Of a stretch of 64,000 nt of DNA, positions 1 to 64,000 are shown piece after piece (position 1 is the stretch's first letter; the number at the start of each line of letters is the position of its first letter). The stretch is from the NCBI GenBank assembly GCA_043228905.1, contig JBHGNT010000053.1, positions 1-64,000 of the forward strand, given 5' to 3'. The notes under the pieces are model-generated. The model was not told where the DNA came from. It saw only the letters and a program-made list of their open reading frames with translations, and did not search any database. Source of the DNA: Azolla caroliniana. Taxonomy: Eukaryota; Plantae; Polypodiophyta. The position numbers were made by a program, and so were the translations under genes.

Positions 1-788
1 AAAAATTTGATGGAACGAGGTCGCGTTTCCGAGGGTTCATCAACCAAGTTCGACTTATCATTCGGCTACAACCTCAACGTTATGGAGATGGTCTTCGACA
101 AGTCGGTCTTGTGGGCACCCTTCTCTCCGGTCCGGCCCAAGCTTGGTTTGCACCATTGGTAGAAACCTCATCACCTTTATTGGAGGACTTTCCCGCCTTC
201 CTCGCCGAGTTAGAGGCCACATTTGGAGAGACGGACCGACGACGTACAGCTCTTAACAAGATTTATGCACTCGAACAAGGTTCACGTGCAGCTTCGGTCT
301 ATGCTTCCGAATTTCGACAACTAGCATGCGACGTCAATTGGGATGATCAAGCTTTAGTTGATCACTTTCGGCGCGGTCTTCGAAGTAATGTCAAGAATCT
401 TCTCTTAAACTTTCCAGAGCCCACCTCGTTATCCCAAGCGATTTCACAAGCAGTCCATTGTGACAATCGTCTTTTCGAATTTCGCCAAGAAGAGCGCCGG
501 ACTTGGGTTCCACCTCATTCACTTCCACGCCACGCCCCGGTCATACAACCCCAAGCATACTCACACTCGCCTACTTCGGCAGATGCTCCTGTCCCCATGG
601 AAATTGATCAAGCCCGATTTCGGCCATTGACTGATGCTGAACGACAATTTCGGCGGGCTAATGGCTTGTGCATGTATTGTGGCGCCTCCGGTCATGTCGT
701 TCGCCATTGTCCTAGGAGTACTCGCCCACAATTCCATCGAGCTAACGGACCCCAACATCCGGAAAACGACATCGTTCGGTTGCAGTAG
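1..788 (+). CDS. gag: Gag of A1 (5'-truncated by window edge), capsid + CCHC zinc knuckle
   Basis: Near-identical to 5065-6081; PMEID motif and CMYCGASGHVVRHC knuckle; stop TAG 786-788. Confidence 0.93.
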   Translation, partial: KFDGTRSRFRGFINQVRLIIRLQPQRYGDGLRQVGLVGTLLSGPAQAWFAPLVETSSPLLEDFPAFLAELEATFGETDRRRTALNKIYALEQGSRAASVYASEFRQLACDVNWDDQALVDHFRRGLRSNVKNLLLNFPEPTSLSQAISQAVHCDNRLFEFRQEERRTWVPPHSLPRHAPVIQPQAYSHSPTSADAPVPMEIDQARFRPLTDAERQFRRANGLCMYCGASGHVVRHCPRSTRPQFHRANGPQHPENDIVRLQ

Positions 789-793
789 GAGCC

Positions 794-3700: not shown

Positions 3701-4342
3701 ACCACTTCCGTGAACCCTTCGGCGGAGGATCGTGCCCGCATTTTGGAAGAAGTACATCATGATTTATCCTTGGAGCTTAGTCTTGCTAATGAACGATACA
3801 AGAAGCAGGCTGATCGCCATCGATCTTCCACTCCACACTTTGTCGTTGGAGACATGGTCTGGTTGTTACGTCGACACATCTCTACTACTCGTCCATGTGC
3901 GAAACTTGATTACAAGAAGTTGGGACCATTCCGTATCATCGAGTGCATCAATCCCGTCGCCTTCCGGCTCGCCCTTCCATCCCACTTCCGGATTCACGAT
4001 GTTTTTCATGTCTCCCTCCTCGAACCCCATTATGCTTCACAACTCCCAGGACGTCAAGCCCCACCACCACCACCTGTGCAGTTGACGACAGGGGAGGAAT
4101 ACGAGGTCGACCAAATCCTTGACTCGCGTTGGCACCGTCGACACTTGCAATACCTCGTCCTATGGCGGGGTTACCCCATGTCTGAGGCCACATGGGAACC
4201 ATCGGCAAATTTACAAAATGCCCCAGAGGTCGTCCAAGATTTTCATCACCGATATCCCCACAAACCAGCGGCCGATTTGGGAAGGCGGCGTAAGAGGGGG
4301 GATAATGTCAAGATTCGAACTCTTGACACGACCATGTTATAA
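794..4342 (+). CDS. pol: Pol polyprotein of A1 (aspartic protease, RT, RNase H, integrase, chromodomain)
   Basis: LLDSGA protease, YLDD RT, ETDASD RNase H, HHCC + D,D35E integrase, GPF motif, chromodomain YEVDQIL..YLVLWRGY..ATWEP. Frame is open from 746 (-1 relative to gag) and runs into the 3' LTR. Confidence 0.95.
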   Translation: MQLDISRRPHSLGSIAGPSGNFTLEVWLSFNSSSIQSVALLDSGASSCFIDVAFAQAHGVPVVGLSKPIPVEAIDGCVLSSGAITQATIPLGLRVGSHQEELTFYLIASPRHPIVLGLTWLEAHNPIVDWCNRSITFSKPRCSCKSMKVNSVSYPSETVDSELTTPSFVQDGFVCGAISNTLHVIPEKYQHFSDVFEKCNADRLPEHRLYDCPIDLQEGACPPFGPLYALSAPELKALRVYLDENLAKGFIQPSKSPAGAPILFVKKKDGSLRLCVDYRGLNKLTVRNRYPLPLIPELLDRLRVARVFSKVDLRGAYNLVRIKPGDEWKTAFRTRYGHFEYKVMPFGLTNAPAVFQHMMNDIFREYLDLFVVIYLDDILIFSPNMEEHTRQVQLVLAKLREHGLYAKGEKCEFDRTSIEFLGYIISPTGITMDMKKVSVIQAWATPRRLKDVQSFLGFANFYRRFIKGFSTLAQPLIALTHKGTPFLWTSEAQNAFDSLKHAFITAPVLLHADPTKPFQVETDASDFAIGAILSQADDNNLMHPVAYYSRKFTASEINYPIYDKELAAIIAAFEEWRPYLAGAQHRVQVVTDHKNLVYFSTTRTLNRRQARWSTFLADYDFEIVFRPGGQHGKADALSRRADLALRPGDAAYAQQSRRLLKPDQLHMFATCMLQDDSLLQQITDASKTDAFANEIRDSLQNPSKATKRKDLDTFTIQEGLLFRDHLLYVPEGPCRTRVLRECHDDPLAGHFGVAKTLELISRGYWWPQPWKLVKEYIKSCEVCARSKAIHHRPYGLLQPLPCPRRPWASISMDLITDLPLVNSYDSVLVVVDRFTKMAHFTPCSKTISGEGMVHLLLNNVVRLHGLPDDVISDRGPQFVSHFWQRLLQTLGISVKLSSAYHPQTDGQTEPVNQILEQYLRCSVSYQQDDWVNLLSLAEFAYNNSLHASTGVTPFFANYGLHPRFNISLPTTSVNPSAEDRARILEEVHHDLSLELSLANERYKKQADRHRSSTPHFVVGDMVWLLRRHISTTRPCAKLDYKKLGPFRIIECINPVAFRLALPSHFRIHDVFHVSLLEPHYASQLPGRQAPPPPPVQLTTGEEYEVDQILDSRWHRRHLQYLVLWRGYPMSEATWEPSANLQNAPEVVQDFHHRYPHKPAADLGRRRKRGDNVKIRTLDTTML

Positions 4343-4658
4343 TCTACTATTATGAGTTAACCAAGATATCTAGTACTAGTTATGTATGTAATTGGTCCTT
4401 ATTATTTTGCTAGCATCATGTGCATAGTTGCTCCTTTGTAGTATTTACACTTGGCACATGCATGCATACCTACATGCTCTATTGTAGATTCACATGCGTG
4501 CAACAAGTGTGCATGCCATGTAGTATAAATAGAGGAGTTCACCTTGAAGGAATTCAAGGTGAACAACACCAGTTATGGAGTCTTTCCTTTAGTACTATCT
4601 TCTTTCTTGTCCATTTGGTTATCTTCTTGGTTGTCTCTTGAGTTTATGATCCGTGACA
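4306..4658 (+). repeat. 3' LTR of A1 (353 bp)
   Basis: TGTCA...TGACA termini, preceded by PPT+AA; TATAAATA at 4524. Differs from the two A2 LTRs at 5 positions I could see. Confidence 0.95.
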
Positions 4659-4662
4659 GTAA

Positions 4663-5015
4663 TGTCAAGATTCGAACTCTTGACACGACCATGTTATAAT
4701 CTACTATTATGAGTTAACCAAGATATCTAGTACTAGTTATGTATGTAATTGTTCCTTATTATTTTGCTAGCATCATGTGCATAGTTGCTCCCTTGTAGTA
4801 TTTACACTTGGCACATGCATGCATACCTACATGCTCTATTGTAGATTCACATGCGTGCAACAAGTATGCATGCCATGTAGTATAAATAGAGGAGTTCACC
4901 TTGAAGGAATTCAAGGTGAACAACACCAGTTATGGAGTCTTTCCTTTAGTACTATATTCTTTCTTGTCCATTTGGTTATCTTCTTCGTTGTCTCTTGAGT
5001 TTATGATCCGTGACA
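4663..5015 (+). repeat. 5' LTR of A2 (353 bp)
   Basis: TGTCA...TGACA; TATAAATA at 4881. Confidence 0.95.
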
Positions 5016-5028
5016 GTTTGTTCACCTT
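4881..5028 (+). promoter_or_regulatory. LTR promoter (TATA), predicted transcript 5' end AAGGTGAACAA (4913-4923) and complementary self-priming PBS TTGTTCACCTT (5018-5028)
   Basis: Exact 11-nt complementarity. The 11-mer starts 32 nt after the TATA box start. There is no TGG tRNA-type PBS after the LTR. Confidence 0.8.
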
Positions 5029-5064
5029 CCATCCTCATAGCTCTCCCTCTCATAAGCCATAGCT

Positions 5065-6081
5065 ATGTCCGACTCAACTAGTGAGTTAGGCCAAATAATG
5101 GTAGCCTTACGACAACTACAGCTTGAAAATGAAGCTCTTCGAAATTCTTTACAAGAACTTCAAGTCGGTACCTCCCTATCCTCACAACCCCCGAACCCTA
5201 GTCTCCCACAACAACCTAGCCTAGAGCCCGATCTTCTACCAACATCTAGCCTAGCTTCATCACAGTTTCTTGAGCCTAAGGTTAGCCTCCCAGAAAAATT
5301 TGATGGAACGAGGTCGCGTTTCCGAGGGTTCATCAACCAAGTTCGACTTATCATTCGGCTACAACCTCAACGTTATGGAGATGGTCTTCGACAAGTCGGC
5401 CTTGTGGGCACCCTTCTCTCCGGTCCGGCCCAAGCTTGGTTTGCACCATTGGTAGAAACCTCATCACCTTTATTGGAGGACTTTCCCGCCTTCCTCGCCG
5501 AGTTAGAGGCCACATTTGGAGAGACGGACCGACGACGTACAGCTCTTAACAAGATTTATGCACTCGAACAAGGTTCACGTGCAGCTTCGGTCTATGCTTC
5601 CGAATTTCGACAACTAGCATGCGACGTCAATTGGGATGATCAAGCTTTAGCTGATCACTTTCGGCGCGGTCTTCGAAGCAATGTCAAGAATCTTCTCTTA
5701 AACTTTCCGGAGCCCACCTCGTTATCCCAAGCGATTTCACAAGCAGTCCATTGTGACAATCGTCTTTTCGAATTTCGCCAAGAAGAGCGCCGGACTTGGT
5801 TCCCACCTCATTCACTTCCACGCCACGCCCCGGTCATACAACCCCAAGCATCCTCACACTCGCCTACTTCGGCAGATGCTCCTGTCCCCATGGAAATTGA
5901 TCAAGCCCGATTTCGACCATTGACTGATGCTGAACGACAATTTCGGCGGGCTAATGGCTTGTGCATGTATTGTGGCGCCTCCGGTCATGTCGTTCGCCAT
6001 TGTCCTAGGAGTACTCGCCCACAATTCCATAGAGCTAACGGACCCCAACATCCGGAAAACGACATCGTTCGGTTGCAGTAG
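5065..6081 (+). CDS. gag: Gag of A2 (338 aa; coiled coil, capsid, CCHC knuckle; Sushi/PEG10-like)
   Basis: LPEKFDGTRSRFRGFINQ capsid motif, PMEID, CMYCGASGHVVRHC. Confidence 0.95.
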   Translation: MSDSTSELGQIMVALRQLQLENEALRNSLQELQVGTSLSSQPPNPSLPQQPSLEPDLLPTSSLASSQFLEPKVSLPEKFDGTRSRFRGFINQVRLIIRLQPQRYGDGLRQVGLVGTLLSGPAQAWFAPLVETSSPLLEDFPAFLAELEATFGETDRRRTALNKIYALEQGSRAASVYASEFRQLACDVNWDDQALADHFRRGLRSNVKNLLLNFPEPTSLSQAISQAVHCDNRLFEFRQEERRTWFPPHSLPRHAPVIQPQASSHSPTSADAPVPMEIDQARFRPLTDAERQFRRANGLCMYCGASGHVVRHCPRSTRPQFHRANGPQHPENDIVRLQ

Positions 6082-6086
6082 GAGCC

Positions 6087-9000
6087 ATGCAACTGGACAT
6101 CTCCCGTCGCCCACATTCTCTTGGTTCCATTGCCGGACCATCAGGCAATTTCACATTGGAGGTATGGCTTTCGTTTAACTCTAGTTCCATTCAGTCTGTT
6201 GCTTTACTTGATTCTGGGGCATCTTCTTGCTTCATCGACGTCGCGTTTGCCCAAGCACATGGCGTACCTGTCGTTGGCCTCTCAAAACCCATTCCAGTTG
6301 AAGCCATCGACGGGTGCGTCCTCTCGTCAGGTGCAATTACTCAAGCTACAATCCCATTAGGGCTTCGGGTGGGCTCACACCAAGAGGAGCTCACTTTTTA
6401 CCTCATCGCATCTCCTCGACATCCGATCGTCTTAGGACTAACGTGGTTGGAGGCGCACAATCCAATAGTGGATTGGTGCAACCGCTTGATCACATTTAGC
6501 AAGCCAAGATGCTCGTGCAAAAGTATGAAGGTAAATTCAGTTTCCTATCCTTCGGAGACGGTCGACTCCGAATTGACTACCCCATCATCCGTCCAGGATG
6601 GGTTTGTTTGTGGCACCATTTCTAACACACTCCATGTTATTCCTGAAAAATACCAACACTTCTCCGACGTATTTGAAAAATGTAATGCTGATCGGTTGCC
6701 TGAACACCGGCTCTACGACTGTCCGATTGATCTTCAAGAAGGTGCGTGTCCACCCTTTGGTCCTCTATATGCGTTGTCTGCACCAGAGTTGAAGGCCCTT
6801 CGTGTGTATCTTGATGAGAACCTCGAGAAAGGCTTTATTCAACCTTCTAAGTCACCAGCCGGGGCCCCCATTTTATTTGTGAAGAAGAAGGACGGCTCTC
6901 TACGCTTATGCGTAGACTACCGAGGTCTCAACAAACTCACTGTGCGCAACCGCTATCCGCTACCTCTGATCCCCGAACTCCTTGATCGGCTCCGAGTTGC
7001 GCGTGTCTTCTCCAAAGTTGATCTGCGTGGCGCGTACAATCTAGTACGCATCAAGCCGGGGGATGAATGGAAAACCGCATTTCGAACACGGTATGGGCAT
7101 TTCGAATACAAGGTAATGCCTTTTGGTCTTACTAACGCTCCCGCAGTTTTTCAACATATGATGAACGATATTTTCCGAGAATATCTTGATCTTTTTGTTG
7201 TCATTTACCTCGATGATATTCTCATTTTCTCGCCAAACATGGAGGAGCACACTCGCCAAGTCCGATTAGTTCTGGCCAAACTTCGCGAGCATGGCCTCTA
7301 TGCCAAAAGCGAGAAATGCGAGTTCGACCGTACCTCGATCGAATTTCTGGGCTACATCATCTCGCCCACTGGCATCACCATGGATATGAAGAAGGTCTCT
7401 GTCATTCAGGCGTGGGCGACTCCAAGGCGACTTAAAGATGTGCAATCCTTCCTCGGCTTCGCGAATTTTTACCGTCGCTTCATCAAGGGGTTTTCCACCC
7501 TAGCACAACCTCTTATCGCTCTCACCCATAAAGGCACTCCATTTTTATGGACCTCGGAGGCACAAAATGCGTTCGACTCACTCAAACACGCATTCATCAC
7601 TGCCCCGGTGCTGCTACATGCCGACCCCACAAAACCCTTCCAAGTCGAAACCGATGCCTCTGACTTTGCCATTGGCGCCATCTTATCCCAAGCAGACGAC
7701 AACAACCTAATGCACCCAGTGGCTTACTATTCCCAAAAATTTACGGCATCTGAAATCAATTATCCCATTTACGACAAGGAGCTTGCTGCTATCATTGCTG
7801 CCTTTGAAGAATGGCGACCCTACTTGGCCGGCGCACAACATCGTGTCCAGGTAGTGACTGATCATAAAAATTTAGTTTATTTTTCCACCACTCGTACTTT
7901 GAATCGAAGGCAGGGCCGTTGGTCTACATTTCTCGCCGACTACGATTTTGAGATCGTATTTCGACCTGGAGGCCAACATGGGAAGGCTGATGCCCTTTCT
8001 CGCCGAGCTGACCTTGCACTCCGCCCTGGGGATGCTGCTTATGCTCAACAATCTAGACGTTTGTTGAAACCCGACCAATTGCATCTGTTTGCCACTTGTA
8101 TGTTGCAGGATGATTCTTTACTCCAACAAATCACTGATGCATCCAAGACCGATGCGTTCGCCAACGAGATTCGAGATAGTTTGCAAAACCCCTCCAAGGC
8201 GACCAAAAGGAAGGATCTTGACACCTTCACCATACAAGAGGGTTTGTTGTTCCGAGATCATCTCTTATACGTCCCAGAGGGCCCATGTCGCACCCGGGTG
8301 TTGCGGGAATGCCACGATGACCCACTTGCAGGTCATTTCGGGGTCGCGAAAACCCTCGAGCTAATCTCTCGGGGGTATTGGTGGCCACAACCATGGAAGC
8401 TGGTCAAAGAATACATAAAGAGTTGTGAGGTTTGTGCTCGCTCCAAAGCCATTCATCATCGGCCATACGGCTTACTACAGCCGCTTCCATGTCCTCGTCG
8501 TCCTTGGGCCTCTATCTCTATGGACCTGATAACTGATCTACCCTTGGTCAATAGCTATGACTCGGTGTTGGTCGTTGTCGATCGGTTTACGAAGATGGCT
8601 CACTTCACTCCATGCTCCAAAACCATTTCCGGAGAAGGAATGGTGCATCTCCTACTCAACAATGTAGTACGCTTGCATGGACTCCCCGATGATGTCATCT
8701 CGGATCGCGGACCCCAGTTTGTCTCTCACTTCTGGCAGCGCCTGCTACAAACTTTAGGCATCTCTGTCAAGTTGTCCTCCGCTTATCACCCCCAAACTGA
8801 CGGGCAAACGGAGCGTGTCAACCAAATCCTTGAGCAGTATCTTCGGTGCTCGGTTAGTTACCAACAAGATGATTGGGTCAACTTACTTTCGCTCGCGGAA
8901 TTCGCCTACAATAATTCACTCCATGCATCGACTGGCGTCACTCCCTTCTTTGCCAACTACGGTTTACATCCTCGCTTCAACATTTCCCTTCCTACCACTT

Positions 9001-9638
9001 CCGTGAACCCTTCGGCGGAGGATCGTGCCCGCATTTTGGAAGAAGTACATCATGATTTATCCTTGGAGCTTAGTCTTGCTAATGAACGATACAAGAAGCA
9101 GGCTGATCGCCATCGATCTTCCACTCCACACTTTGTCGTTGGAGACATGGTTTGGTTGTTACGTCGACACATCTCTACTACTCGTCCATGTGCGAAACTT
9201 GATTACAAGAAGTTGGGACCATTCCGTATCATCGAGTGCATCAATCCCGTCGCCTTCCGGCTCGCCCTTCCATCCCACTTTCGGATTCACGATGTTTTTC
9301 ATGTCTCCCTCCTCGAACCCCATTATGCTTCACAACTCCCAGGACGTCAAGCCCCACCACCACCACCTGTGCAATTGACGACAGGGGAGGAATACGAGGT
9401 CGACCAAATCCTTGACTCGCGTTGGCACCGTCGACACTTGCAATACCTCGTCCTATGGAGGGGTTACCCCATGTCTGAGGCCACATGGGAACCATCGGAA
9501 AATTTACAAAATGCCCCAGAGGTCGTCCAAGATTTTCATCACCGATATCCCCACAAACCAGCGGCCGATTTGGGAAGGCGGCGGCGTAAGAGGGGGGATA
9601 ATGTCAAGATTCGAACTCTTGACACGACCATGTTATAA
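6087..9638 (+). CDS. pol: Pol polyprotein of A2 (PR-RT-RH-IN-chromodomain)
   Basis: Uninterrupted 1183-aa ORF with all catalytic motifs; integrase QTDGQTERVNQ intact. Confidence 0.96.
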   Translation: MQLDISRRPHSLGSIAGPSGNFTLEVWLSFNSSSIQSVALLDSGASSCFIDVAFAQAHGVPVVGLSKPIPVEAIDGCVLSSGAITQATIPLGLRVGSHQEELTFYLIASPRHPIVLGLTWLEAHNPIVDWCNRLITFSKPRCSCKSMKVNSVSYPSETVDSELTTPSSVQDGFVCGTISNTLHVIPEKYQHFSDVFEKCNADRLPEHRLYDCPIDLQEGACPPFGPLYALSAPELKALRVYLDENLEKGFIQPSKSPAGAPILFVKKKDGSLRLCVDYRGLNKLTVRNRYPLPLIPELLDRLRVARVFSKVDLRGAYNLVRIKPGDEWKTAFRTRYGHFEYKVMPFGLTNAPAVFQHMMNDIFREYLDLFVVIYLDDILIFSPNMEEHTRQVRLVLAKLREHGLYAKSEKCEFDRTSIEFLGYIISPTGITMDMKKVSVIQAWATPRRLKDVQSFLGFANFYRRFIKGFSTLAQPLIALTHKGTPFLWTSEAQNAFDSLKHAFITAPVLLHADPTKPFQVETDASDFAIGAILSQADDNNLMHPVAYYSQKFTASEINYPIYDKELAAIIAAFEEWRPYLAGAQHRVQVVTDHKNLVYFSTTRTLNRRQGRWSTFLADYDFEIVFRPGGQHGKADALSRRADLALRPGDAAYAQQSRRLLKPDQLHLFATCMLQDDSLLQQITDASKTDAFANEIRDSLQNPSKATKRKDLDTFTIQEGLLFRDHLLYVPEGPCRTRVLRECHDDPLAGHFGVAKTLELISRGYWWPQPWKLVKEYIKSCEVCARSKAIHHRPYGLLQPLPCPRRPWASISMDLITDLPLVNSYDSVLVVVDRFTKMAHFTPCSKTISGEGMVHLLLNNVVRLHGLPDDVISDRGPQFVSHFWQRLLQTLGISVKLSSAYHPQTDGQTERVNQILEQYLRCSVSYQQDDWVNLLSLAEFAYNNSLHASTGVTPFFANYGLHPRFNISLPTTSVNPSAEDRARILEEVHHDLSLELSLANERYKKQADRHRSSTPHFVVGDMVWLLRRHISTTRPCAKLDYKKLGPFRIIECINPVAFRLALPSHFRIHDVFHVSLLEPHYASQLPGRQAPPPPPVQLTTGEEYEVDQILDSRWHRRHLQYLVLWRGYPMSEATWEPSENLQNAPEVVQDFHHRYPHKPAADLGRRRRKRGDNVKIRTLDTTML

Positions 9639-9954
9639 TCTACTATTATGAGTTAACCAAGATATCTAGTACTAGTTATGTATGTAATTGTTCCTTATTA
9701 TTTTGCTAGCATCATGTGCATAGTTGCTCCCTTGTAGTATTTACACTTGGCACATGCATGCATACCTACATGCTCTATTGTAGATTCACATGCGTGCAAC
9801 AAGTATGCATGCCATGTAGTATAAATAGAGGAGTTCACCTTGAAGGAATTCAAGGTGAACAACACCAGTTATGGAGTCTTTCCTTTAGTACTATATTCTT
9901 TCTTGTCCATTTGGTTATCTTCTTCGTTGTCTCTTGAGTTTATGATCCGTGACA
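9602..9954 (+). repeat. 3' LTR of A2 (353 bp)
   Basis: TGTCA...TGACA, followed by CCTAT (candidate TSD half). Confidence 0.95.
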
Positions 9955-43740: not shown

Positions 43741-46166
43741 GCTCACTCACTCGTGGACATTAATTCATTCATTATTCATATATCTATGTACATATATCAT
43801 CATCATCAAAATCATCATCATCATCTCTGTGTGGTCGGTCGGTCACGCAGACCAAAATACATGAACATACATATGTACATACATTCTTCATTTCTTTCTT
43901 ATCTATCTAGTATCTAGTCAAGGGAGTTATTAAGAAGTTTTACAAGAGAACCATTTCGAATGCAAGTGGGCGGGCAATCACACACAAGAATCAACCAAAC
44001 TCGTTAGTGCGGCTCTTTTATTGACACAACTATCAATAATTATTGACATAAAAGAGTTGATAGTTGTGTCAATAATTATTGACACAACTATCAACTCTTT
44101 TATGCATGGACAACAATTGGGGCAACCACAAAGGAGTCCATCCATCTCCCCATAACAATAGAACATGATGGATGTCCTATGTTGGTGGTGATGCAACATC
44201 CACATCTAACAACACTTGTGATGCATTATCGACCTCGAGAGCTCACCAATGACACTTTGGAGGCAATTTTAGTAATGACAAATAGTGTTTCACTCTTTGC
44301 GCTCATATACAACACTACTACTAGCCCATCCAATGACAAAGCTTGGTATGCCCGATCGATAACATTTGCTCCAACTCTCCTTGCGTCAACTCCCAGATGA
44401 CAAGAAATCAAAGCTCAAGTTTATCATTTGGACACGAAACAGGTGTCTCCAAACTATCATCGTGATCCTCTCCAATAAGATCCTTTGAGGAAATCATGGT
44501 GTCCTTGATTTGGGGATGGTGACTATGTGAACAGACATTCAAACATATGGCAAACTAACCACTTGTTTCAATATCTTACTTGGGTGTTATACAAAAGCGC
44601 ATCGTATGCATGCATGTGTAGGTGGAAACTCGTTGACATTGTGGACTAGGAAATGGGTGGGATGATCCAATATATATCAAAGAATGCATAGCGCGTGGGG
44701 TGTTGGAACAAAGAATATGTGAATCAGTATCTTGGCTTGTGAGATTTCAAACCTCCAACGCCTATGTTAGAAACAAGATGCTTCAAATTATTGAGCAAGG
44801 AACGATATATAACGTAAAATAACAACCAAGCAAGCAAGGATACACAGGTATGAATGAATGTATGATTTATCTTGAGCTTTTTAAGATATATTGTGTGCCT
44901 ATAAGAGATTTGTTGAAGTTGGGGAGATATTTACAAGGGACACAATTGCATGCGAAGGAATTTAAGGGGAGATTGTGGAACATTCAAAAGCTAAAACATG
45001 GTGGCGAATAATGTGTCTTGTTGAAAGGAAAGTAGGGCAAGACAATCAAAGTGTTATCATAAACTCAAAGTCACGAAGATACACATGGCAAACATTTGGT
45101 GTTTGGCAATGCCTCTTATTAAATTTTGAAGGTGAAACTCCATCATGGGTTGTCTCTAATTAGTAGAAGATATTCTCTTAAAAAATCATTTGCATTGGGT
45201 AGGAGACATAGGAGTGAGAGGAAGTGAATTGTTGGAGGTGATTGTCAACGAAGTATGCCATGATCCACACAAAATGCCCAACCATGGGCATCACATCGAA
45301 AAGTTGACTAGTTGAGAGTGAAGCACACCTTTGGTGAGCATTGTGAAAATCTTACCATGTTCATCTATGTGGAAGAGGATAGAAGTTGGGACTGGTGGAT
45401 ATGTAGCCAAGAGTCGGTTGAACAATTTATCAATGACGCAACCATCTAATTAAGGTTAACCCTCCAAGGTGGTTATTTATCGGGGGGCTTCAAAAGGAAG
45501 TTTTGAACCTAATGAGCTTGACCCAACTCTAGGGACACAATTATCAATCAAGTTGTTGGTTGTCAACATACAACATTGGGTATAAGAGCATATCAATTTG
45601 TTGTTCAATGGAACTTCAAGGTAAAAGTGCGAGAGATGTGTGATGAGGGGTAGTTCAAAAAGCTCATGGTAATAAGCAAGAGGAACAACAAAATGTTTGT
45701 TGTTGTCCTCATTCCATTTTGTCCACATATTCCGGGAGTGTGCCATTGAGCTTGAACCAATAATTGGCCATAAAAACAATTGGCATTGAAGCTTTGGATG
45801 AATAATTAGAGCTTGAGTTTCACAATGTGAAGATGAGGATGACAATTGTCGGTGGAGGGGTCCGTCAATGAGAGGAACGTCCTTAAGCAAAAAATTTACT
45901 AATGTAGGTTCCAAATGATGAAAAACAATGTGTTAGGCGTGATGCTTGCAAGTGGGGTTGTGGTTTGTGTCTTATTTGCAGAAATGGGTGTCAAGGACGT
46001 GTAATCTTGACTCACAACATGTGGGATGTTGAGTGAAATGAATATGAAGCCCTCCATAGAAAATACGATCTAGCCTTTTCTGTTATTAACCGTTCGGTTG
46101 TAGCAAGGAGTGCGGGCGACTTTGTGATATAGTAGATAATGTAATAGTCAAAGAAGATATTCTAAG

Positions 46167-46167
<1 letters not shown>

Positions 46168-46232
<65 letters not shown>
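46168..46232. repeat. (CA)n(GA)n microsatellite
   Basis: Direct reading. Confidence 0.95.
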
Positions 46233-46234
<2 letters not shown>

Positions 46235-46660
46235 CAAGAAGTTTTCATTAAAATGAAAGGAAAGACCTTATGCAGCAAACTAGTTTCGCTCGCTTAGACC
46301 TCATCAGTGCAAAAGGTCATGGAAATACAAATGGTGGTTTATATAGGATGTTGAGAATGGGGAAGGGAGGAGAAAGAGGGAAAGTATAATCATAGTGAGT
46401 GGGGTGTAATAAGAGTGTAAATAGATGGAAGGCTGTAAGGATTTAAGGTGGAAGATCTTGATGATAGGGGGGGTGGTGATAAAGGGGGAAATGAGTTGGT
46501 GATAGGAAGATTGATAGGGTGATAAGACAGATGAGTGAGTGGGATATGGTGATAAGGGGAAATGAATGAGTGATAGGGTATGTAATTATAAGTAAGTAAA
46601 TATAAGATGGTGAGAAGGTGAAAATTAAGGAAGGGAATAAGAAGGGAAAGGAAGGAAAAT
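46233..46660 (-). mobile_element. Probable 3' end/pseudo-LTR of a Penelope-like element
   Basis: Carries the hammerhead. Same strong strand skew (G/A-rich plus strand) as the Penelope-like ORF region at 57822-58790; abuts a (GA)n tract. Confidence 0.5.
46264..46318 (-). ncRNA. Minimal type I hammerhead ribozyme of the Penelope-like-element kind
   Basis: Minus strand GACCTT-TT-GCA CUGAUGA GGTC-TAAGC-GAGC GAAA C-TA-G TT TGC TGCAT AAGGTC. Both core boxes present, palindromic ACTAGT stem III, stem I GCA/TGC plus GACCTT/AAGGTC; one G-G mismatch in stem II. Confidence 0.7.
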
Positions 46661-49174: not shown

Positions 49175-50027
49175 CATAAGTGGGGTTTCTTTCAAATTTA
49201 TGCAATAGTTTGAGCTTATACCGTTTACACACCTACTTTGTCTTATAAATGGCTACAGAAAAGTAATGAATCTTAAAAAATCCTCTAGGTTTCTTACGAA
49301 GCCAAATCAGCATCCTTGGCTAGGCCTAAAGAGTTTTTCCATCTGGCTGTAACTCCTTTATTTCACATCCATGTCATTCATTGCTCTTTTTAGTAATTTC
49401 CCAACTAAGTTAAACTAAATCAAACATACCATACCATACCAAATTAAACCAAATCAAACATACTATAGCATACCAAACCAAATTAAACTAAATCAAACAT
49501 ACCATACCATAGCAAATTAAACCAAATCAAACATACTATAGCATACCATACCAAATTAAACTAAATCAAACATACCATACCATACCATAGCAAATTAAAC
49601 CAAATCAAACATACTATAGCATACCATACAACTAAATCAAACATACCATACCATAGCAAATTAAACCAAATCAAACATACTATAGCATACCATACAACTA
49701 AATCAAACATACCATACCATACCAACTTAAACCAAATCAAACATACTATAGCATACCAAACCAAATTAAACTAAATCAAACATACCATACCATAAGTGGG
49801 GTTTCTTTCAAATTTATGCAATAGTTTGAGCTTATACCGTTTACACACCTACTTTGTCTTATAAATGGCTACAGAAAAGTAATGAATCTTAAAAAATCCT
49901 CTAGGTTTCTTACGAAGCCAAATCAGCATCCTTGGCTAGGCCTAAAGAGTTTTTCCATCTGGCTGTAACTCCTTTATTTCACATCCATGTCATTCATTGC
50001 TCTTTTTAGTAATTTCCCGACTAAGTT
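49175..50027 (+). repeat. 237-bp direct repeats (49175-49411, 49791-50027) flanking a 379-bp satellite insert (49412-49790)
   Basis: The two copies differ at one visible base (CCCAACT vs CCCGACT); the insert is the same satellite as 56960-57793. Confidence 0.93.
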
Positions 50028-50455
50028 GAATCTGCTTTAACCTCTTTATGTAAATGCCATTTCTCCTTATCATCATTCATTTGCTCCACCTACAAATAAA
50101 TTTGATATCATTCAGGAACACACGCTCAAATGCAATGAACAAGATGATATAAATCCACGGGGGATCATAGAACTCTTCATATGAGAAATAAAAACAGGCA
50201 ACAAAAAACACATCTTTACTAGTTCAGACAATGGTAGCACATACCCAAGCACTTAACGGTTTCTTACGATGCAATGTATCATACACACACGTGTATGATG
50301 GAACAACCATGTAACTTGATCTTAGTAGAACTTTCTAGGGTTTCCAAATTTCTACCCAAGTGCAAGTGACACATCACTAACAAGCATATACATAAGGTAG
50401 CAATGCACATTCTGCTAATGCATTAAAACGACATTGTTCTGTGAAAATGGAGTAC

Positions 50456-54673
<4,218 letters not shown>

Positions 54674-55507: not shown

Positions 55508-57821
55508 CCCGCACTAGCATCAGAGGGATCGTCATAATATAGTACATGCAATGACAAAAAATATTCAAAATGTTTTTGGTCTTTAACTTTGGAGATTTTG
55601 GTCTCCAAAATCAAACCTTAGAAACTTTTTGTGGTTGGCAATGTGTGGAATTTGAAGTTTTAAGTATTTTCAAAACACGTTTTTAGTTTTTTTGTGGTTG
55701 AAATTTATATTAATTGTTATTTTGGTAGTGGAAATTTTAATGTTTTGATGACAAAGGTTGTCAGAATCGGGCTATGGGAAACTCCCGTACTCTTTTAGAT
55801 AAAGATCTAATAGTGCAAATTGCACTTGGCCTCTGAAATGCGCCCTACACCGTTGTGACCGTGATTCCCTCACCAAGCCTTATTATCAGTTGGATGCAAA
55901 TAAACACCAGCCTTCTACATACAAACATACATATACTTTATGAGCCCGCCGAATCCCACGAAAACTAGAGATTGTGAGTTACATACATATGTAGAAACCT
56001 CTAATTGTGTCATGTGGCCAAAAGACCCTTTTGCTCATCCAACAAGTGAACGGTGTTCCCATTAGTCGGTCCTATGAAAGAGTTGCGAGTAATTTCACAA
56101 GTTTTCTCACTCTTTCTCTATATGTGTGCATGTGCATGCATGTGTGGATGCATGTCTGTCTCAGGGTATGTTAGGGTTTTTATGTAGTTTTTATGCCAAG
56201 GGTTTTGTTTATGATGAAACTAGGTGTCGCGTCGTGACATATCTGGATGATCGTGATGGCCACATACACAGAAGCATTAATTAGATGTTTTTGATCCTTG
56301 CCCCGATGACACAATGACTCACCTTTGTTTGTTTACACAGTACATTGTCATATAACAATTATCCCCATATTTGCAATCCTATTCTAAAAGCGTGAACATC
56401 ATGGTTGGTTTTGACACATTGAATCCTTTCTTCTTCTTCTTTTTAATAACAAGCTCCTCCCCCTTCTTCGCAATGTGTTGTTTAATTAGCAAACGATTAG
56501 CACACATGTGGTTAGGCCGCCATAAAACTCTGCATGGTTTACAATTGTTTTTATTACGATCTTCGAAGGATTTATTTGAATGTATTCCTTTGTCTTTACA
56601 CATATAGATTGTTCACCTTTCATGTTGGCAATGCGCAAACAAAAGAGAGGTATTTGGCTTGACTCAGAGTCACATGGAAGTTCGAGAAACATGTCTTTCA
56701 CATAGCGAATTCTTGTGGTATTGAATTGAAGGTATTGCCAACCCAATCCAACCAGCCCGTATCCTACCGAATTGAACCATATCATAGTGAATTAAGCCTA
56801 ATTAAACCAAACCATACTAAATTAAACCAAATCAATCCAATTCAACCAACCCAATACGAATTCTTGTGGTATTGAATTGAAGGTGTTGCCAACCCAATCC
56901 AACCAACCCAATATCCTACCAAATTGAACCATATCATAGTGAATTAAGCATAATTAAACCATATCATACCAAATCAAACATACTATACCATACCATACCA
57001 AATTAAACCAAATCAAACATACTATAGCATACCAAACCAAATTAAACTAAATCAAACATACCATACCATACCAAATTAAACCAAATCAAACATACTATAG
57101 CATACCAAACCAAATTAAACTAAATCAAACATACCATACCATACCAAATTAAACCAAATCAAACATACTATAGCATACCAAACCAAATTAATCTAAATCA
57201 AACATACCATACCATACCAAACCAAATTAAACTAAATCAAACATACCATACCATACCAAATTAAACCAAATCAAACATACTATAGCATACCAAACCAAAT
57301 TAAACTAAATCAAACATACCATACCATACCAAATTAAACTAAATCAAACATACCATACCATACCAAATTAAACTAAATCAAATATACCATACCATAGCAA
57401 ATTAAACCAAATCAAACATACTATAGCATACCATACCAAATTAAACTAAATCAAACATACCATACCATACCATAGCAAATTAAACCAAATCAAACATACT
57501 ATAGCATACCATACAACTAAATCAAACATACCATAGCATACCATACAACTAAATCAAACATACCATACCATACCAACTTAAACCAAATCAAACATACTAT
57601 AGCATACCAAACCAAATTAAACTAAATCAAACATACCATACCATACCAAATTAAACCAAATCAAACATACTATAGCATACCAAACCAAATTAAATTAAAT
57701 CAAACATACCATACCATACCAAATTAAACTAAATCAAACATACCATACCATACCAAATTAAACCAAATCAAACATACCATACCATACCAAATTATGACGA
57801 TCCCTCTGATGCTAGTGCGGG
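55508..57821. mobile_element. Non-autonomous TIR element with 31-bp perfect TIRs (CCCGCACTAGCATCAGAGGGATCGTCATAAT), carrying a satellite
   Basis: 55508-55538 is the exact reverse complement of 57791-57821. No coding ORF inside; no clean TSD (AA left, TA right). Confidence 0.7.
56960..57793. repeat. Satellite of ~34-39-bp units built from 5-mers (AAACC AAATC AAACA TACCA TACCA ...)
   Basis: Direct reading; preceded by a ~150-bp duplication (about 56706-56960). Confidence 0.95.
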
Positions 57822-58790
57822 TAAGATAAGGATTTTAGTATTTCTCTTAAGGCTATTGAGGGCTAAGAGAAGGTGGTATGGGGGTTTAACATACTTAATT
57901 TTAGTGTTTAGTAGTTGTTCTTGTAGGATACTATTGTATTTTTCAATAAGGGTTTCTAAGGGAAGGTATTTAGATGGAGGGTTCCAGCTGGGGTTAGGTA
58001 ATTTGAAGGGATTCGGTGGGGTAGTATCATTATTTTTAAAGAAGTGTCTAAGGCGTAGTGATCTACTAAGGTTGGTATATTCTTTAAGGATATTTTGAGG
58101 GGAGGGTGGGGGGGGGGGGGAAGGGGGGGGTGTATTTTAGTCCTAAGTTTAATAATTGTGTTTCGTTTTTACTAAGTGTGTAAGCGGACAAGTTATGTAG
58201 ACTAAGACTAGTACGAGGGGTATAAGCTAAAGGTTTCCAAAATTTAGTCCTAGGTCTATTCCTGCGGGTTTTCTTAGAGGTAGGGTAAAACATGAATTTT
58301 TTATTATTAGTATTCCCCAACCACATAAAAGTGTCAGGGGTTGAGGTTTGTCTATTGAGAAGGTAGAAGATTCGTTTTCTAGGATGTATGGCGTGTCTAA
58401 AGTGTCTATTCACACGTTTAGCACACCGTGTTAGACGTATTTTGGTCGGGCTATGGGAGGGTTTGAGGAGGGGGTATGTGAATGATTTTGAGTATTATGG
58501 TGTCTATTATGAGGCCTATGATTTATGTGGGGATATGATGTAGTAATATTTTTTGGAGGGGGAGGGGTAGTGTTAACATTATTAAAAGGATAGGGCGTGG
58601 TATTAATTTTTGGAGGGGGGAGGGTATTATGTATTAAGAAAGAAGGGGGAGGGTTAATAGAGGAATTAGAGAAATATGGGGGAGGGATAATAGAGGAAGT
58701 AGGGGGAAGGGTATGAGTAAAATGCGGGGGAGGAGTATACGAAAAATTAGTGTAAATAGGTGGAGGGGAATATGTGTAATTTGAAGAAAC
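57822..58790 (-). mobile_element. Penelope-like element ORF N-terminal fragment
   Basis: HNLSAYTLSKNETQLLNLGLKYTP, then after a frameshift near the G-runs RSLRLRHFF..PFK.PNPSWNPP..LNSLKRNTKILILPA; these are the PLE pre-RT motifs that normally lead into PADKG. Confidence 0.7.
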
Positions 58791-60224: not shown

Positions 60225-63200
60225 GTTAGTGTCAAGGTTACTCTACTCAACTTTTTTGTTACACAAGAAGGACTTGAAGAGCAACTTCTAGGACAGGTTG
60301 TGACAAAAGAACGACCAGATCTTGCTGAAATGAAGAATCATCTAACTATTTCCAATGCAAATATGAAACGGGAACTTAAAGAGATTGAGTCACAAATTCT
60401 TCATCTTTTGTCAAAAGCACAAGTTAGTGTCCTCTAAAAATCTGTGACAGGCTTTTCAGTTATTCAATTTTTTAATATTTAATAAGTAATCTATTGATAG
60501 CATGATAATGAAATTTCATATCTATGCATAATTATTTTCAGGGAAACATTCTGGATGATGAAGTCCTTATCAATACTCTTGCTCAGTCAAAGGTAACATC
60601 AAATGTTATCAAAATAAAGGTTGCAGAAGCTGAGAAAACAGAAATAGCCATTGATGAAACAAGAGAGGCATGTATTATTGCTCAATATTATGCTCTAAAT
60701 GGAATCCCAAAATTGTTAGCGCTGATGAAATCTATCTGTTTTTGTCTTACAGGGTTACCGTAAAGTCGCAACAAGAGCATCACAATTGTTCTTTTGTATA
60801 TCAGATTTGGTTTCTGTTGATCCCATGTATCAATATAGCCTAACTTGGTTCATATCATTGTTCAATCGAGCTATGGATGGTGCTACGCAAGCATCAATAA
60901 TAGAGAAGAGAGTGCAAAATTTAAATGAGTATTTTACATATTTGCTTTATGTGAATGTGTGCCGGTCGCTCTTTGAAAAGCATAAGTTGATGTTCTCTCT
61001 AATGCTATGTATCAAGATTTTACAGGTTTGAGCATCTCCTATATTTCCACTACTGTCTATGTGTCTTTTCCCAGAACCTATTTTGCTTCATGTTGAAAAT
61101 GGGAATTGTAAAGAAAGATATATTAATAACTATTTCCCAATCTTACTGAGACACCATAGGATAAAATGCTTTCATGGGGGCAAACATGCAACACAGGCCA
61201 TTTTTTCCATGTTAAGTAGCTTGAGAGTTCTAGATTTCAAGCTGTAGAATCAGGCACCCTTTTCATACTATACCTATGTAATCCGTTTTTACTTAGACCA
61301 TTGCCGTCATTCCAGTGTTAATTTCCTAGCTGTAGGAAGATATTTTCCAAAGTTTTGAGTTTATTTCAAATCTTTTCCATTTTCCCAGTGTAATAACAGC
61401 TTTGTAGTCAATGTTTGGTGTTCTAATTAGATTGAGGATGTTGGTGGTACTAGCAACCACATGCTCTACTAGTGAAATAGTCAAAATGAGACAATAGTAT
61501 TAGATAAAATTTCTGGATTGGACTCAAAAGGCCATTTTGGCATTGTAAAAAACTTTAATAAAAGCTTGCTTTCTTTCTTTCCATCCTCACTCCATAGATG
61601 TAACTGATTGCTGTAAAGAACCTAACTCTCGTAGAGTGCGTAGTGTGTGTGTGAGAGTGGGTGTGTGAGCAAGAGAAGGAATCAGAGAAAATAAGCATAA
61701 ATAATCAAATACACAATAGGGGGATGACAGCTTATGCACTGAAGAGAAAACTATATTAATCAACTAAAGATCAACTAAACACAATGCGTCAAGAGGGTTT
61801 TATATACAAATCCTCAAGTGATTGTTGGGAATCTAATCAAGATATCCACTCGAGTGTCTTATATTCGTGGACCACATTTACACGTGACAACTAACTAGAC
61901 ATCACAATCTAGTTCTTCGTGTAACTACATAGTTCACACAGATTACAATAAAGTGTGTTTTTCTTCATAAGCACATGTTCAGACAAGTTGAGCTTGATTC
62001 TCAAAAATTGCTAATAATTACTGGATTCACTTCATTGTTTGCAATAGATGCAGAAGGCAATGTGACCGCGCCATTGTTTTTTAGCTAATAAGATGCAGCT
62101 TCTTTTTTGATATAGGAAAAGGGATGTGTAGATCCTGTTGAGTGGCGGTTCTTGCTCGCAGGAGCCACATCATCTACAATGTCACAGCCTAACCCTGCTC
62201 CAGAATGGCTGACTGACAAGGTATTTAAGAAATATTGTGATCTTTCTCTTGAACATGTTTGTATGTTTGTTAAGCATCTTACCAGAAGTTTGGTTCTGCA
62301 GTCATGGATTGAGATATTACAGCTTAGCCAGTCAAAGAATCTCAAAGGTTTTGAGCAGCATTTTATTGAAAACATATCACATTATAAAAGGATTTTTGAT
62401 AGCTCAGAAGCTCATCAAGAACCACTTCCAGAAGACTGGAATAACAAATTAAACAAACTGCAAAAATTGCTCATACTTCGGTGTATCCGTGTTGATAAGG
62501 CACTTCTGGGAATACAGGTACTGACTAGCCTTGATTCATTTGTTAATCTTGATTCATTGGTTTAGGTATCCATCAATGGAATGGTTAAGCTACCGAATCT
62601 TCTCTACATATATTTCATACTAATTTGAAAATAATAACCAAATGTTTTCTATAGGATTTTGTATCGGAAAACCTAGGTCAGCGCTTTATCGAGCCACCTG
62701 CATTTGACCTTGCTGGATGTTATAAAGATGGGTCTCCTTCATCACCGCTCATTTTTGTGCTTTCTTCTGGAGCTGATCCCATGGCTGATCTCCTGAAGCT
62801 AGCAGAAGACCTTCGGTTTACTAAGAAATTTGAGAAGGTATTGAATCCATAGAACTCCCTTTGTTTAAAATACATGTTATGGAGAAACTCAGTTTGGGCA
62901 AGCTGGTGGCAGATGATTACAAATATAGAAACCCAGTTCTCTCTTAAAATGCTTACATATCATTGCTTTTTCTGTGTTTTATTCCTAGGTTTCTCTTGGA
63001 CAAGGTCAAGGACCCAAAGCAGAAAAGCTTCTTGAACTAGGGATGGATCGTGGCATGTGGGTATGCCTTCAGAATTGTCACTTGTCACAATCATGGATGC
63101 CTGCTCTTGAGCGTATTGTTGATAACATCGATCCAGAAAAGGTAGTACTATAGAATTCAGATTTTTCTTTGAACCAGATTTGAGAATTTCTTTGTTCTTA

Positions 63201-64000
63201 CTTTTAATATTTCATGTTTATACACTCAGGTGCATAAAGACTTTCGGCTCTGGTTAACCAGCATGCCTAGTCCTGATTTCCCTGTTTCAATTCTTCAAAA
63301 TGGTGTAAAAATGACTTTGGAACCTCCAAAGGGTTTGAAGTCAAACCTAGCGCGGTCATACATGAGATATACTGACAAGGTCCTGAATGACTGTGCCAAA
63401 CCAGATGTATGGAAGAAGTTTTTGTTTGCGACATGTTTATTCCATGCTGTTATTCAAGAAAGAAGGAAATTTGGTGCTTTAGGATGGAATATAAGGTATG
63501 AATTCACAGATGGAGATCTAGCTGTTTGCCAGACTCAAATTCGGATGTTTCTAAACGAATACAACGAAATTCCGTATAAGGTAGTTTCCTACACTATTTA
63601 TCCTGATTCGCCATAGCAAGAGAAATTTTTGTTTTGTCATTGATTGGATGTGTCGATATTCAGGTTATCCGGTTTCTTTGTGGAGAAATCAACTATGGTG
63701 GTCGTGTCACGGATGATAAGGATAGGCGACTTATGAATAATCTGCTTCTCAAGTTTATTATTCCAGAGGTTTTCTACTGTCTCTTATCACACAAGCAAAG
63801 AAATGTCTTTATATAATTAGTCTTACAGACAAAGAAGCAATCTTGACATTCAATTTACTTAACTCTGATGCAGATTATAGTTGAAACAAAACACAGCTTC
63901 AGTGAGTCTGGAGTATATATTATCCCTGATGCAACAAATGTCAATGGATTTGCCGCATACATTAAAGAGCTTCCACTGGCGCCAAAGCCAGAGATATTTG
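60225..64000 (+). CDS. DNAH1: Axonemal inner-arm dynein heavy chain (DNAH1-like), AAA5-AAA6 region; partial
   Basis: Exons 60225-60422, 60542-60667, 60753-61025, 62116-62220, 62302-62517, 62655-62837, 62989-63141, 63230-63580, 63664-63768, 63874->64000, all in frame. Motifs GLEEQLLG..ERPDL, DPMYQYSL, RSLFEKHKL, SLGQGQG, LQNCHL, FRLWLTS, NYGGRVTD. Subfamily assignment is from memory. Confidence 0.88.
61599..61947. mobile_element. Solo LTR in a dynein intron
   Basis: TGTAA...TTACA termini with near-TSD ATAGA (61594-61598) / ATAAA (61948-61952). Confidence 0.6.

What the first reader, a model, noticed from the sequence alone, without database searches (positions are those of the whole stretch)
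46264..46318. Minimal hammerhead ribozyme of Penelope type on the minus strand
Seen: CUGAUGA (46307-46301), stem II GGTC/GAGC with one mismatch, GAAA (46287-46284), palindromic ACTAGT in place of stem III, a GUU triplet (cleavage predicted after 46278), and stem I GCA/TGC extended by GACCTT/AAGGTC. It lies about 30 nt from a (GA)n tract at the end of a strand-skewed segment. Known: Penelope-like elements carry minimal type I hammerheads with palindromic stem III, thought to cleave as dimers, and these elements are patchy in land plants. Inference: a ribozyme-bearing PLE or retrozyme-like family exists in this genome; this copy may be partly decayed.
Basis: partly seen in the sequence, partly recalled or inferred. 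Interest (0 to 1): 0.75.

Follow-up and report, generated by a model that had tools for sequence, protein, structure and literature searches.

The report
Hammerhead in plant telomeric Penelope fragment
This conserved, likely self-cutting RNA motif sits in a 600-base broken-off piece of a multi-copy plant jumping gene that has a copying enzyme but no DNA-cutting enzyme and likely attaches to chromosome tips and DNA breaks; the kind is already known from a spikemoss, and this copy carries one damaging letter change.

Summary
The motif is real and at the stated coordinates. It is a canonical type I hammerhead with a 2-bp palindromic helix III, not the 'minimal' form. It lies in a 607-nt fragment (46047-46653, minus strand) of an endonuclease-less Penelope-like element (PLE). 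A metagenome scan gave 24 loci; 15 carry the PLE reverse transcriptase, which groups with Selaginella, Ginkgo and Cryptomeria proteins and has no room for a GIY-YIG domain. Unit order: 3'UTR, TATA box, hammerhead, (UC)n, conserved leader motif, ORF1 with telomere-complement repeats, RT. The (GA)n tract is inside the element. The helix II mismatch is private to this window: another assembly of the same locus and all contigs of six runs read the paired letter. Distal helix I shows compensatory changes. One locus runs into a telomere array. Possibly new: one family switches ancestry at the ribozyme, as cut-and-rejoin would give, though recombination in the invariant core explains it too; and a 1.7-1.8 kb RT-less tandem derivative exists. 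Cleavage, transcription and chromosome position were not tested. This scan already reported the same family on other pieces of this genome. New member of a known kind; moderate interest.

The parts
46047..46653 (-). Fragment of an endonuclease-less Penelope-like element, truncated at both ends, no target-site duplication seen
   Evidence: 84-85% identical to L011 over 46194-46642 and 46047-46147; a contig of organism D aligns up to 46653 and Ty3 contigs begin at 46654
46348..46653 (-). C/U-rich distal 3'UTR of the RT ORF, which doubles as predicted promoter region (the 'strand-skewed segment')
   Evidence: In L011 the homologous stretch lies between the RT stop (636 nt before C3) and the hammerhead
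46338..46345 (-). TATA-like box (TATATAAA), 38 nt before hammerhead C3; promoter function predicted
   Evidence: TATA-like word starts 34-39 nt before C3 in 25 of 26 hammerhead entries; the 26th has only 20 nt upstream; outside the scan pattern
46264..46318 (-). Canonical type I hammerhead, 2-bp palindromic helix III, GUU site, cleavage predicted after 46278
46299..46299 (-). Substitution that breaks helix II in this window only
   Evidence: Family letter in 100% of laid depth in X5, X9, X13, X15 and X10, X9, X12, X15; L010 has the family letter
46167..46232 (-). (UC)26(UG)7 tract, internal to the element's leader
   Evidence: L011, L009 and L020 continue past the same tract into leader and ORF1
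46088..46114 (-). Conserved leader element: CGCACUCCUUG followed by a 4-bp tetraloop hairpin; function unknown, possibly RT or ORF1 binding
   Evidence: 11 invariant columns in 12 distinct sequences, picked on that word; hairpin 95.5% of cells paired, one pair with double change, 11/500 shuffles as high
46047..46057 (-). First 11 nt of ORF1, then the junction to unrelated DNA
   Evidence: Matches the ORF1 start of L011 and L009; no further ORF1 in the window

Best explanation
The motif is a conserved type I hammerhead inside a 607-nt fragment of an endonuclease-less Penelope-like retroelement of a land plant, and it likely cuts the element's tandem transcript into unit-length RNA. Shown: tandem units ordered 3'UTR, TATA-like box, hammerhead, (UC)n leader with a conserved motif, ORF1 with C-strand telomere-like repeats, RT without GIY-YIG. 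Inferred: transcription starts just after the TATA box, at or within helix I, runs through ORF1 and RT and into the next unit's hammerhead; two copies pair through the AACUAGUU palindrome and cleave slowly; the RT primes cDNA on an exposed DNA 3' end, a telomere overhang annealed to the C-rich repeats or an internal break, and copies back across the ribozyme site, so its template is uncut read-through RNA or re-joined RNA. The window copy would be such a short insertion at an internal break, primed near the ORF1 start and aborted in the 3'UTR; it has no RT, no partner hammerhead nearby and is probably inert.
For: Scan: 25 matches in 24 loci; 15 of 24 hold the RT. L011, 83-85% like the window piece, has RT-hammerhead-ORF1-RT in tandem. 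RT: weak RVT_1 match, no GIY-YIG; ends 204-214 aa after YxDD in 6 of 6 loci against 343-399 in 19 GIY-YIG-bearing homologues; FastTree support 100 for a group with Selaginella, Ginkgo and Cryptomeria proteins. AACCCT occurs 12-56 times on the sense strand and 0-1 on the other in 12 of 12 unit-bearing loci examined. L003 leaves the family sequence at an internal AAACCCT repeat and runs into a pure array to the contig end. Contigs of four organism labels show no variant row at 46264-46287 or 46300-46306 among the 15 rows at 4% share or more, while loop II varies. Four distal helix I pairs are kept in 14 of 14 distinct sequences in two states (GACC/GGUC in 9, GGUC/GACC in 5) and a further pair flips U-A to A-U in 3; one contig of organism D carries both arms of the second state (record 20). 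PMC4209133 reports canonical type I hammerheads in Selaginella EN-minus PLEs and proposes cleavage and circularisation.
Against: No cleavage, transcript or start-site data. Chromosome position is unknown (no genome held); only 1 of 24 loci shows a terminal telomere array, and the window copy has no telomere repeat at its junction. Core, helix II and proximal helix I were fixed by the scan pattern, so their invariance in the 24 loci is by construction; the contig data count only records at least 80% alike. Helix II never covaries. The two helix I states may be one event. In the window's subfamily a competing helix I register makes the hammerhead shape 4.6-5.1 kcal/mol worse than the free fold against 1.8 in the others, and 9.7 for the window copy. 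The 3' junction may come from later deletion or insertion instead of priming; a second PLE fragment in the window ends inside the RT, far from the leader. Loci include repeat assemblies of the same families and are not independent.
Confidence: 0.82

Rival explanations
1. Same element, but the hammerhead is nearly silent in vivo: copying uses uncut read-through RNA, and the conserved core serves as a protein-binding or dimerisation signal; ancestry switches at the ribozyme come from recombination in its invariant core.
For: All copies seen span the site and no pile-up of ends was listed there (table 6 empty, contigs only). GUU site in the whole family; GUU as a slow triplet is recalled, my search gave no usable source. 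Loop II varies freely, so loop-loop contacts are not conserved. Competing helix I register. PMC4209133 found low in vitro activity for metazoan PLE motifs.
Against: Catalytic core letters are held across four organism labels; the only core variant is C3-to-U at 2-9% of depth. GUU is common among PLE hammerheads in the supplement of PMC4209133 (Fig. S3). Helix I covaries.
Confidence: 0.25
2. The window copy derives from a non-autonomous retrozyme-like family, not from an RT-coding unit.
For: Seven loci form a 1.7-1.8 kb tandem unit with the same hammerhead core and leader motif and no RT. The window piece is too short to include RT.
Against: Its best relative by far is the RT-coding L011 (439 bits against at most 51 for the RT-less loci), including 330 nt of 3'UTR.
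Confidence: 0.07
3. A microsatellite-targeting or (UC)n-tailed element whose 3' end is the (GA)n tract.
For: Contigs of all four organisms run into (GA)n at the same junction; PMC8557442 reports microsatellite bias for Naiad and Chlamys PLEs.
Against: Element sequence continues beyond the tract into the leader and ORF1, in the window itself and in L009, L011, L020.
Confidence: 0.02
4. Member of the EN-less Chlamys PLE-X group of spike mosses and Chara, which also bear canonical hammerheads (PMC8557442).
For: Plant host, no GIY-YIG, canonical hammerhead.
Against: No CxC in the RT or ORF1 of L011; separate ORF1; telomere-complement repeats; no rDNA flank seen. No labelled PLE-X protein was in my tree, so placement is indirect.
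Confidence: 0.04
5. Chance match.
For: No Rfam hit; the free fold of the window copy does not form helix II.
Against: 0.03 loose hits per shuffled window; 24 homologous loci; covariation.
Confidence: 0.01

Closest known systems
Telomere-associated EN-minus PLEs of Selaginella moellendorffii (Coprina group) with canonical type I hammerheads (PMC4209133; Gladyshev and Arkhipova 2007 seen only as cited in PMC8557442 and PMC12477314)
   Same: RT without GIY-YIG, 37% identical to a Selaginella protein and in one supported group with it; hammerhead in the repeated end; C-strand telomere repeats on the sense strand; tandem units; one junction to a telomere array.
   Different: Another plant lineage (RT branch of its own); loop II is highly variable whereas Selaginella motifs are said to keep tertiary-contact bases; interstitial fragments between genes; fixed TATA spacing, leader motif, ancestry switch at the ribozyme and an RT-less derivative were not in the passages I could read.
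Metazoan PLE min-HHRs (PMC4209133)
   Same: Type I, palindromic positions 15.2-16.2, predicted dimer, G10.1-C11.1, GUU sites occur.
   Different: Here helix II is 4 bp, there is no extra base after position 9, helix I has a distal stem with compensatory changes, and the carrier lacks an endonuclease.
Non-LTR retrozymes of animals (PMC7229834; bioRxiv 10.64898/2026.07.22.740005)
   Same: The seven RT-less loci are tandem, non-coding, type I hammerhead units sharing ends with autonomous PLEs.
   Different: Plant host, 1.7-1.8 kb instead of 170-400 nt, retains the ORF1 start; circular RNA not shown. The window copy itself is not of this subfamily.
Athena and Terminon elements of rotifers (as described in PMC12477314, PMC8557442)
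   Same: Attachment to G-rich overhangs through C-rich repeats 3' of a hammerhead.
   Different: Units of about 5 kb with two ORFs, different RT clade (not tested directly).

Membership tests
Type I hammerhead ribozyme | Core CUGANGA, GAAA, NUH with helices I and II | tested here: met
   the window copy has 3 of 4 helix II pairs
Type I hammerhead ribozyme | Structure supported by compensatory change | tested here: met
   Distal helix I, two states plus one pair flip in 14 distinct sequences; helix II invariant, so uninformative
Type I hammerhead ribozyme | Site-specific self-cleavage | not testable with these tools
   no bench data
PLE min-HHR (PMC4209133) | No helix III loop, long helix II, extra base between 9 and 10.1, short helix I | tested here: not met
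   2-bp helix III with UA loop, 4-bp helix II, A9 followed directly by G10.1, 3+6 bp helix I
Penelope-like elements | PLE-type RT | tested here: met
   Homologues include GIY-YIG-bearing RTs at E<1e-30; ADKN and YIDD motifs
Penelope-like elements | Partial tandem (pseudo-LTR) structure with hammerhead in the repeat | tested here: met
   L007, L009, L011, L015, L020 hold RT-hammerhead-ORF1; L005 has a second hammerhead about 255 nt on
EN-minus (Coprina-type) PLE | No GIY-YIG endonuclease | tested here: met
EN-minus (Coprina-type) PLE | Reverse-complement telomere repeats on the sense strand 3' of the hammerhead | tested here: met
   in leader of L003, L007, L011, L026 and in ORF1. Absent from the window fragment itself
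EN-minus (Coprina-type) PLE | Location at chromosome ends | tested here: inconclusive
   1 of 24 loci ends in a telomere array; no assembly to map; the window copy is interstitial
EN-minus (Coprina-type) PLE | RT groups with curated Coprina references | tested here: inconclusive
   Groups with an uncharacterised Selaginella protein; no labelled Coprina sequence was available
Chlamys PLE-X | CxC motif N-terminal to RT | tested here: not met
Plant LTR retrozymes | Type III hammerhead in LTRs with PBS and PPT | tested here: not met
   Type I topology; no LTR pair around the copy

The most novel reading that the evidence does not exclude
The genome records the ribozyme at work: PLE RNA is cut at both hammerheads and re-joined (circle or RT template jump) before copying. 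One family (L009, L020) has leader and ORF1 of the window's subfamily (87-89% DNA after the cut site, 85% ORF1 protein) but RT, 3'UTR and promoter of another (67-69%), with the switch inside the ribozyme; L022 shows a second switch 5 nt after the cut site. With a TATA box firing into helix I, the element would remove its own cap, and a 1.7-1.8 kb RT-less unit would be a plant non-LTR retrozyme derived from a PLE.
Probability: 0.3. Interest if true: 0.7.

Novelty: new member of a known kind. Interest (0 to 1): 0.42.

Why it matters
What PLE hammerheads do in vivo is stated as unclear in PMC8557442, and telomeric PLEs are called rare in plants, with Selaginella as the example, in PMC12477314. 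This family is multi-copy, has intact ORFs, several subfamilies and natural chimaeras, so the cleavage-and-circle model becomes testable in a plant. The RT tree points to one EN-less lineage shared by a lycophyte, this plant and gymnosperms. The window copy itself is an ordinary inert fragment, and the scan has reported the family before.

Tried and rejected
No whole genome is held, so no genome-wide count or map. Rfam gave no hammerhead. The viral scan gave L001 and L002, one unrelated phage hammerhead with no similarity to the window. No RNA holder was listed; this says nothing on expression. After I took the (GA)n tract for a tail or target; refuted it. The MAFFT alignment A1 did not put the distal helix I in register, so RNAalifold found no covariation; I counted pairs by anchoring on the GRYC words instead. 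A constrained double-hammerhead energy script crashed and was not redone for the dimer; unconstrained self-cofolding paired the palindrome between molecules in 2 of 6 sequences, L011 and L007. The maximum-likelihood tree did not finish; the FastTree run used 54 rows, leaving out P0003-P0012, 7 of 19 GIY rows, 3 other rows and the remaining hits. Three of eight 3' junctions begin with CAT on the host side; post hoc, and L006 may be a later insertion, so not used. Junctions relative to the leader motif start: L012 +29, L019 +39, L003 +53, window +68, L006 +131, L018 -105, L025 about -110, L013 an inversion; loci were selected on the hammerhead, so clustering is suggestive only. Summed contig depth shows many copies but is no copy number. 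Gladyshev and Arkhipova 2007, Arkhipova 2017 and Lin 2016 are not held, so features I call possibly new may be in them.

Full report
Observation. It is the only such motif in the window, Rfam does not report it, and a loose descriptor finds 9 hits in 300 shuffled windows. By the definitions in PMC4209133 (read: main text parts 1-2 of 4, supplement parts 1-2 of 3) it is the canonical type I form with a short palindromic helix III, not the minimal form.

It is a conserved multi-copy family. Sixteen listed runs from four coded organisms and two plant-associated metagenomes hold some of the stretch, ten of them half or more. Laying contigs on 46221-46345 gave 15 variant rows at 4% share or more, all shown. 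At 46299 all laid depth in all four runs reads the letter that completes helix II as GCUC/GAGC; one search shows the same with two further runs. No row falls in 46264-46287 or 46300-46306; C3-to-U appears at 2-9% of depth; loop II changes in length and sequence. One contig of organism D carries both arms of a distal helix I that differs from the window's by two compensatory pairs. Contigs drop rare variants and only records at least 80% alike are laid.

What carries it. An exact-pattern scan of metagenome contigs gave 25 matches in 24 loci. L010 is the window's own locus from another assembly: 5,399 nt at 99.6%, four substitutions, one being the family letter at 46299. So the mismatch is a private variant or an assembly error. 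Fifteen of 24 loci hold an RT. L011, the closest other locus, reads RT, 3'UTR, hammerhead, (UC)n(UG)n, leader, ORF1, RT. Aligning to it extends the window piece to 46047-46653: distal 3'UTR, TATA-like box, hammerhead, microsatellite, leader and the first 11 nt of ORF1. The (GA)n tract is therefore internal. The flanks are a Ty3 integrase piece starting at 46654 and unassigned DNA; no duplication was seen and no more ORF1 lies in the window.

The RT is of PLE type and lacks an endonuclease. Nearest named homologues are from Cryptomeria, Selaginella and a Ginkgo-style id at 37-42%; more distant ones carry GIY-YIG. Six locus RTs end 204-214 residues after YxDD, against 343-399 for 19 GIY-YIG-bearing hits, and Pfam finds no nuclease. 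A FastTree tree of 54 rows puts them with the plant proteins at support 100, apart from the GIY rows (midpoint root, no curated Coprina reference). There is no CxC. ORF1 has Asn-Pro runs encoded by telomere-complement repeats; AACCCT is strand-specific in 12 of 12 loci examined. L003 departs from L007 at an internal AAACCCT repeat just before ORF1 and continues as a pure array to the contig end, the arrangement described for EN-minus PLEs in PMC8557442 and PMC12477314 (passages).

Conserved signals around the ribozyme. A TATA-like word starts 34-39 nt before C3 in 25 of 26 entries, which would put a start site at or within the 5' strand of helix I; this spacing rule is from general knowledge and untested here. 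Four distal helix I pairs hold in 14 of 14 distinct sequences in two states. The window's subfamily has a repeated UGC that favours an off-register helix I.

Mechanism. Shown: unit order, EN-less RT, telomere repeats, one telomere junction, conserved core. Inferred: read-through transcript, dimer cleavage through the palindrome, priming on telomere overhangs or breaks, copying across the ribozyme site. Because the window copy starts near ORF1 and continues through the hammerhead into the 3'UTR, its template must have been uncut or re-joined at that site. A second PLE fragment at about 57816-58790 ends inside the RT, so interstitial pieces are not always bounded in the leader.

Hint of re-joining. 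L009 and L020 (two assemblies, 99.8% alike) match the window's subfamily after the cut site (87-89% over 45 nt; 82-92% over the first kilobase of ORF1; 85% protein) but not before it (67-69% over 100 nt, the background level) or in RT (67-69% protein), where they are closer to L008 (80-87% DNA). The switches lie near the ORF1-RT boundary and between the TATA box and the cut site. L022's second hammerhead has the RT-less family's 5' side and an unrelated 3' side from 5 nt after the site (one contig). A cut-to-cut circle or template jump predicts this; so does recombination in the 30-nt invariant core. The data do not separate them. Seven loci form an RT-less 1.7-1.8 kb tandem unit.

Comparison and novelty. 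The kind is known from Selaginella (PMC4209133); PMC5680766 (passages) mentions tandem hammerheads there too. Searches for hammerhead + Penelope-like + fern, fern genome + Penelope, Coprina + Selaginella and chimaera terms listed no paper describing this family or an ancestry switch at the ribozyme; I saw listings only for most hits, passages of PMC7229834 and of bioRxiv 10.64898/2026.07.22.740005, and three key papers are not held. Supplements of PMC8557442 were not read and may list plant families. Two unreviewed notes of this scan report the same kind of element on other pieces of this genome.

Verdict. Real hammerhead, fragment of an EN-minus telomere-type PLE, new member of a known kind, interest 0.42. 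The re-joining reading has probability about 0.3 and would deserve 0.7.

Noticed in passing
window about 57816-58790, minus strand: Second fragment of the same PLE group (end of ORF1 and first 215 aa of RT, 52-56% identical to L011 RT, frameshifted), between an L1-type endonuclease piece and an ACCAT-rich minisatellite.
   Followed up: partly
L004, L014, L017, L019, L021, L022, L024: RT-less 1.7-1.8 kb tandem subfamily with hammerhead, leader motif and ORF1 start: a candidate plant non-LTR retrozyme.
   Followed up: partly
L013:115-1348: An inverted RT piece begins 99 nt after hammerhead C3: two element pieces in opposite orientation.
   Followed up: partly
L011:4400-4630: A tract of variant telomere-like repeats sits between two copies of a 14-nt leader word; absent from the window copy.
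   Followed up: no
L005, about 255 nt after the first hammerhead: Short partial tandem with a second hammerhead whose first core box is mutated.
   Followed up: no
L001 and L002:2990-3065: Unrelated intergenic phage hammerhead with the same helix II and a long helix III.
   Followed up: no
window 1-9954: Two tandem, 98.9% identical chromodomain-bearing Ty3 elements with 357-nt repeats; intact pol ORFs.
   Followed up: no
window 49175-50030: An ACCAT-rich minisatellite block flanked by a 240-nt direct duplication (99% identical); a related block lies at 56700-57794.
   Followed up: no
window 44047-44104: Perfect 58-nt palindrome just upstream of what looks by eye like the first exon of a leucyl-tRNA synthetase gene (no Pfam hit for that ORF).
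   Followed up: no
window 50450-51210 and 63173-63616: Adenylosuccinate lyase exons and an axonemal dynein heavy chain exon; the latter indicates a land plant with flagellate sperm.
   Followed up: partly
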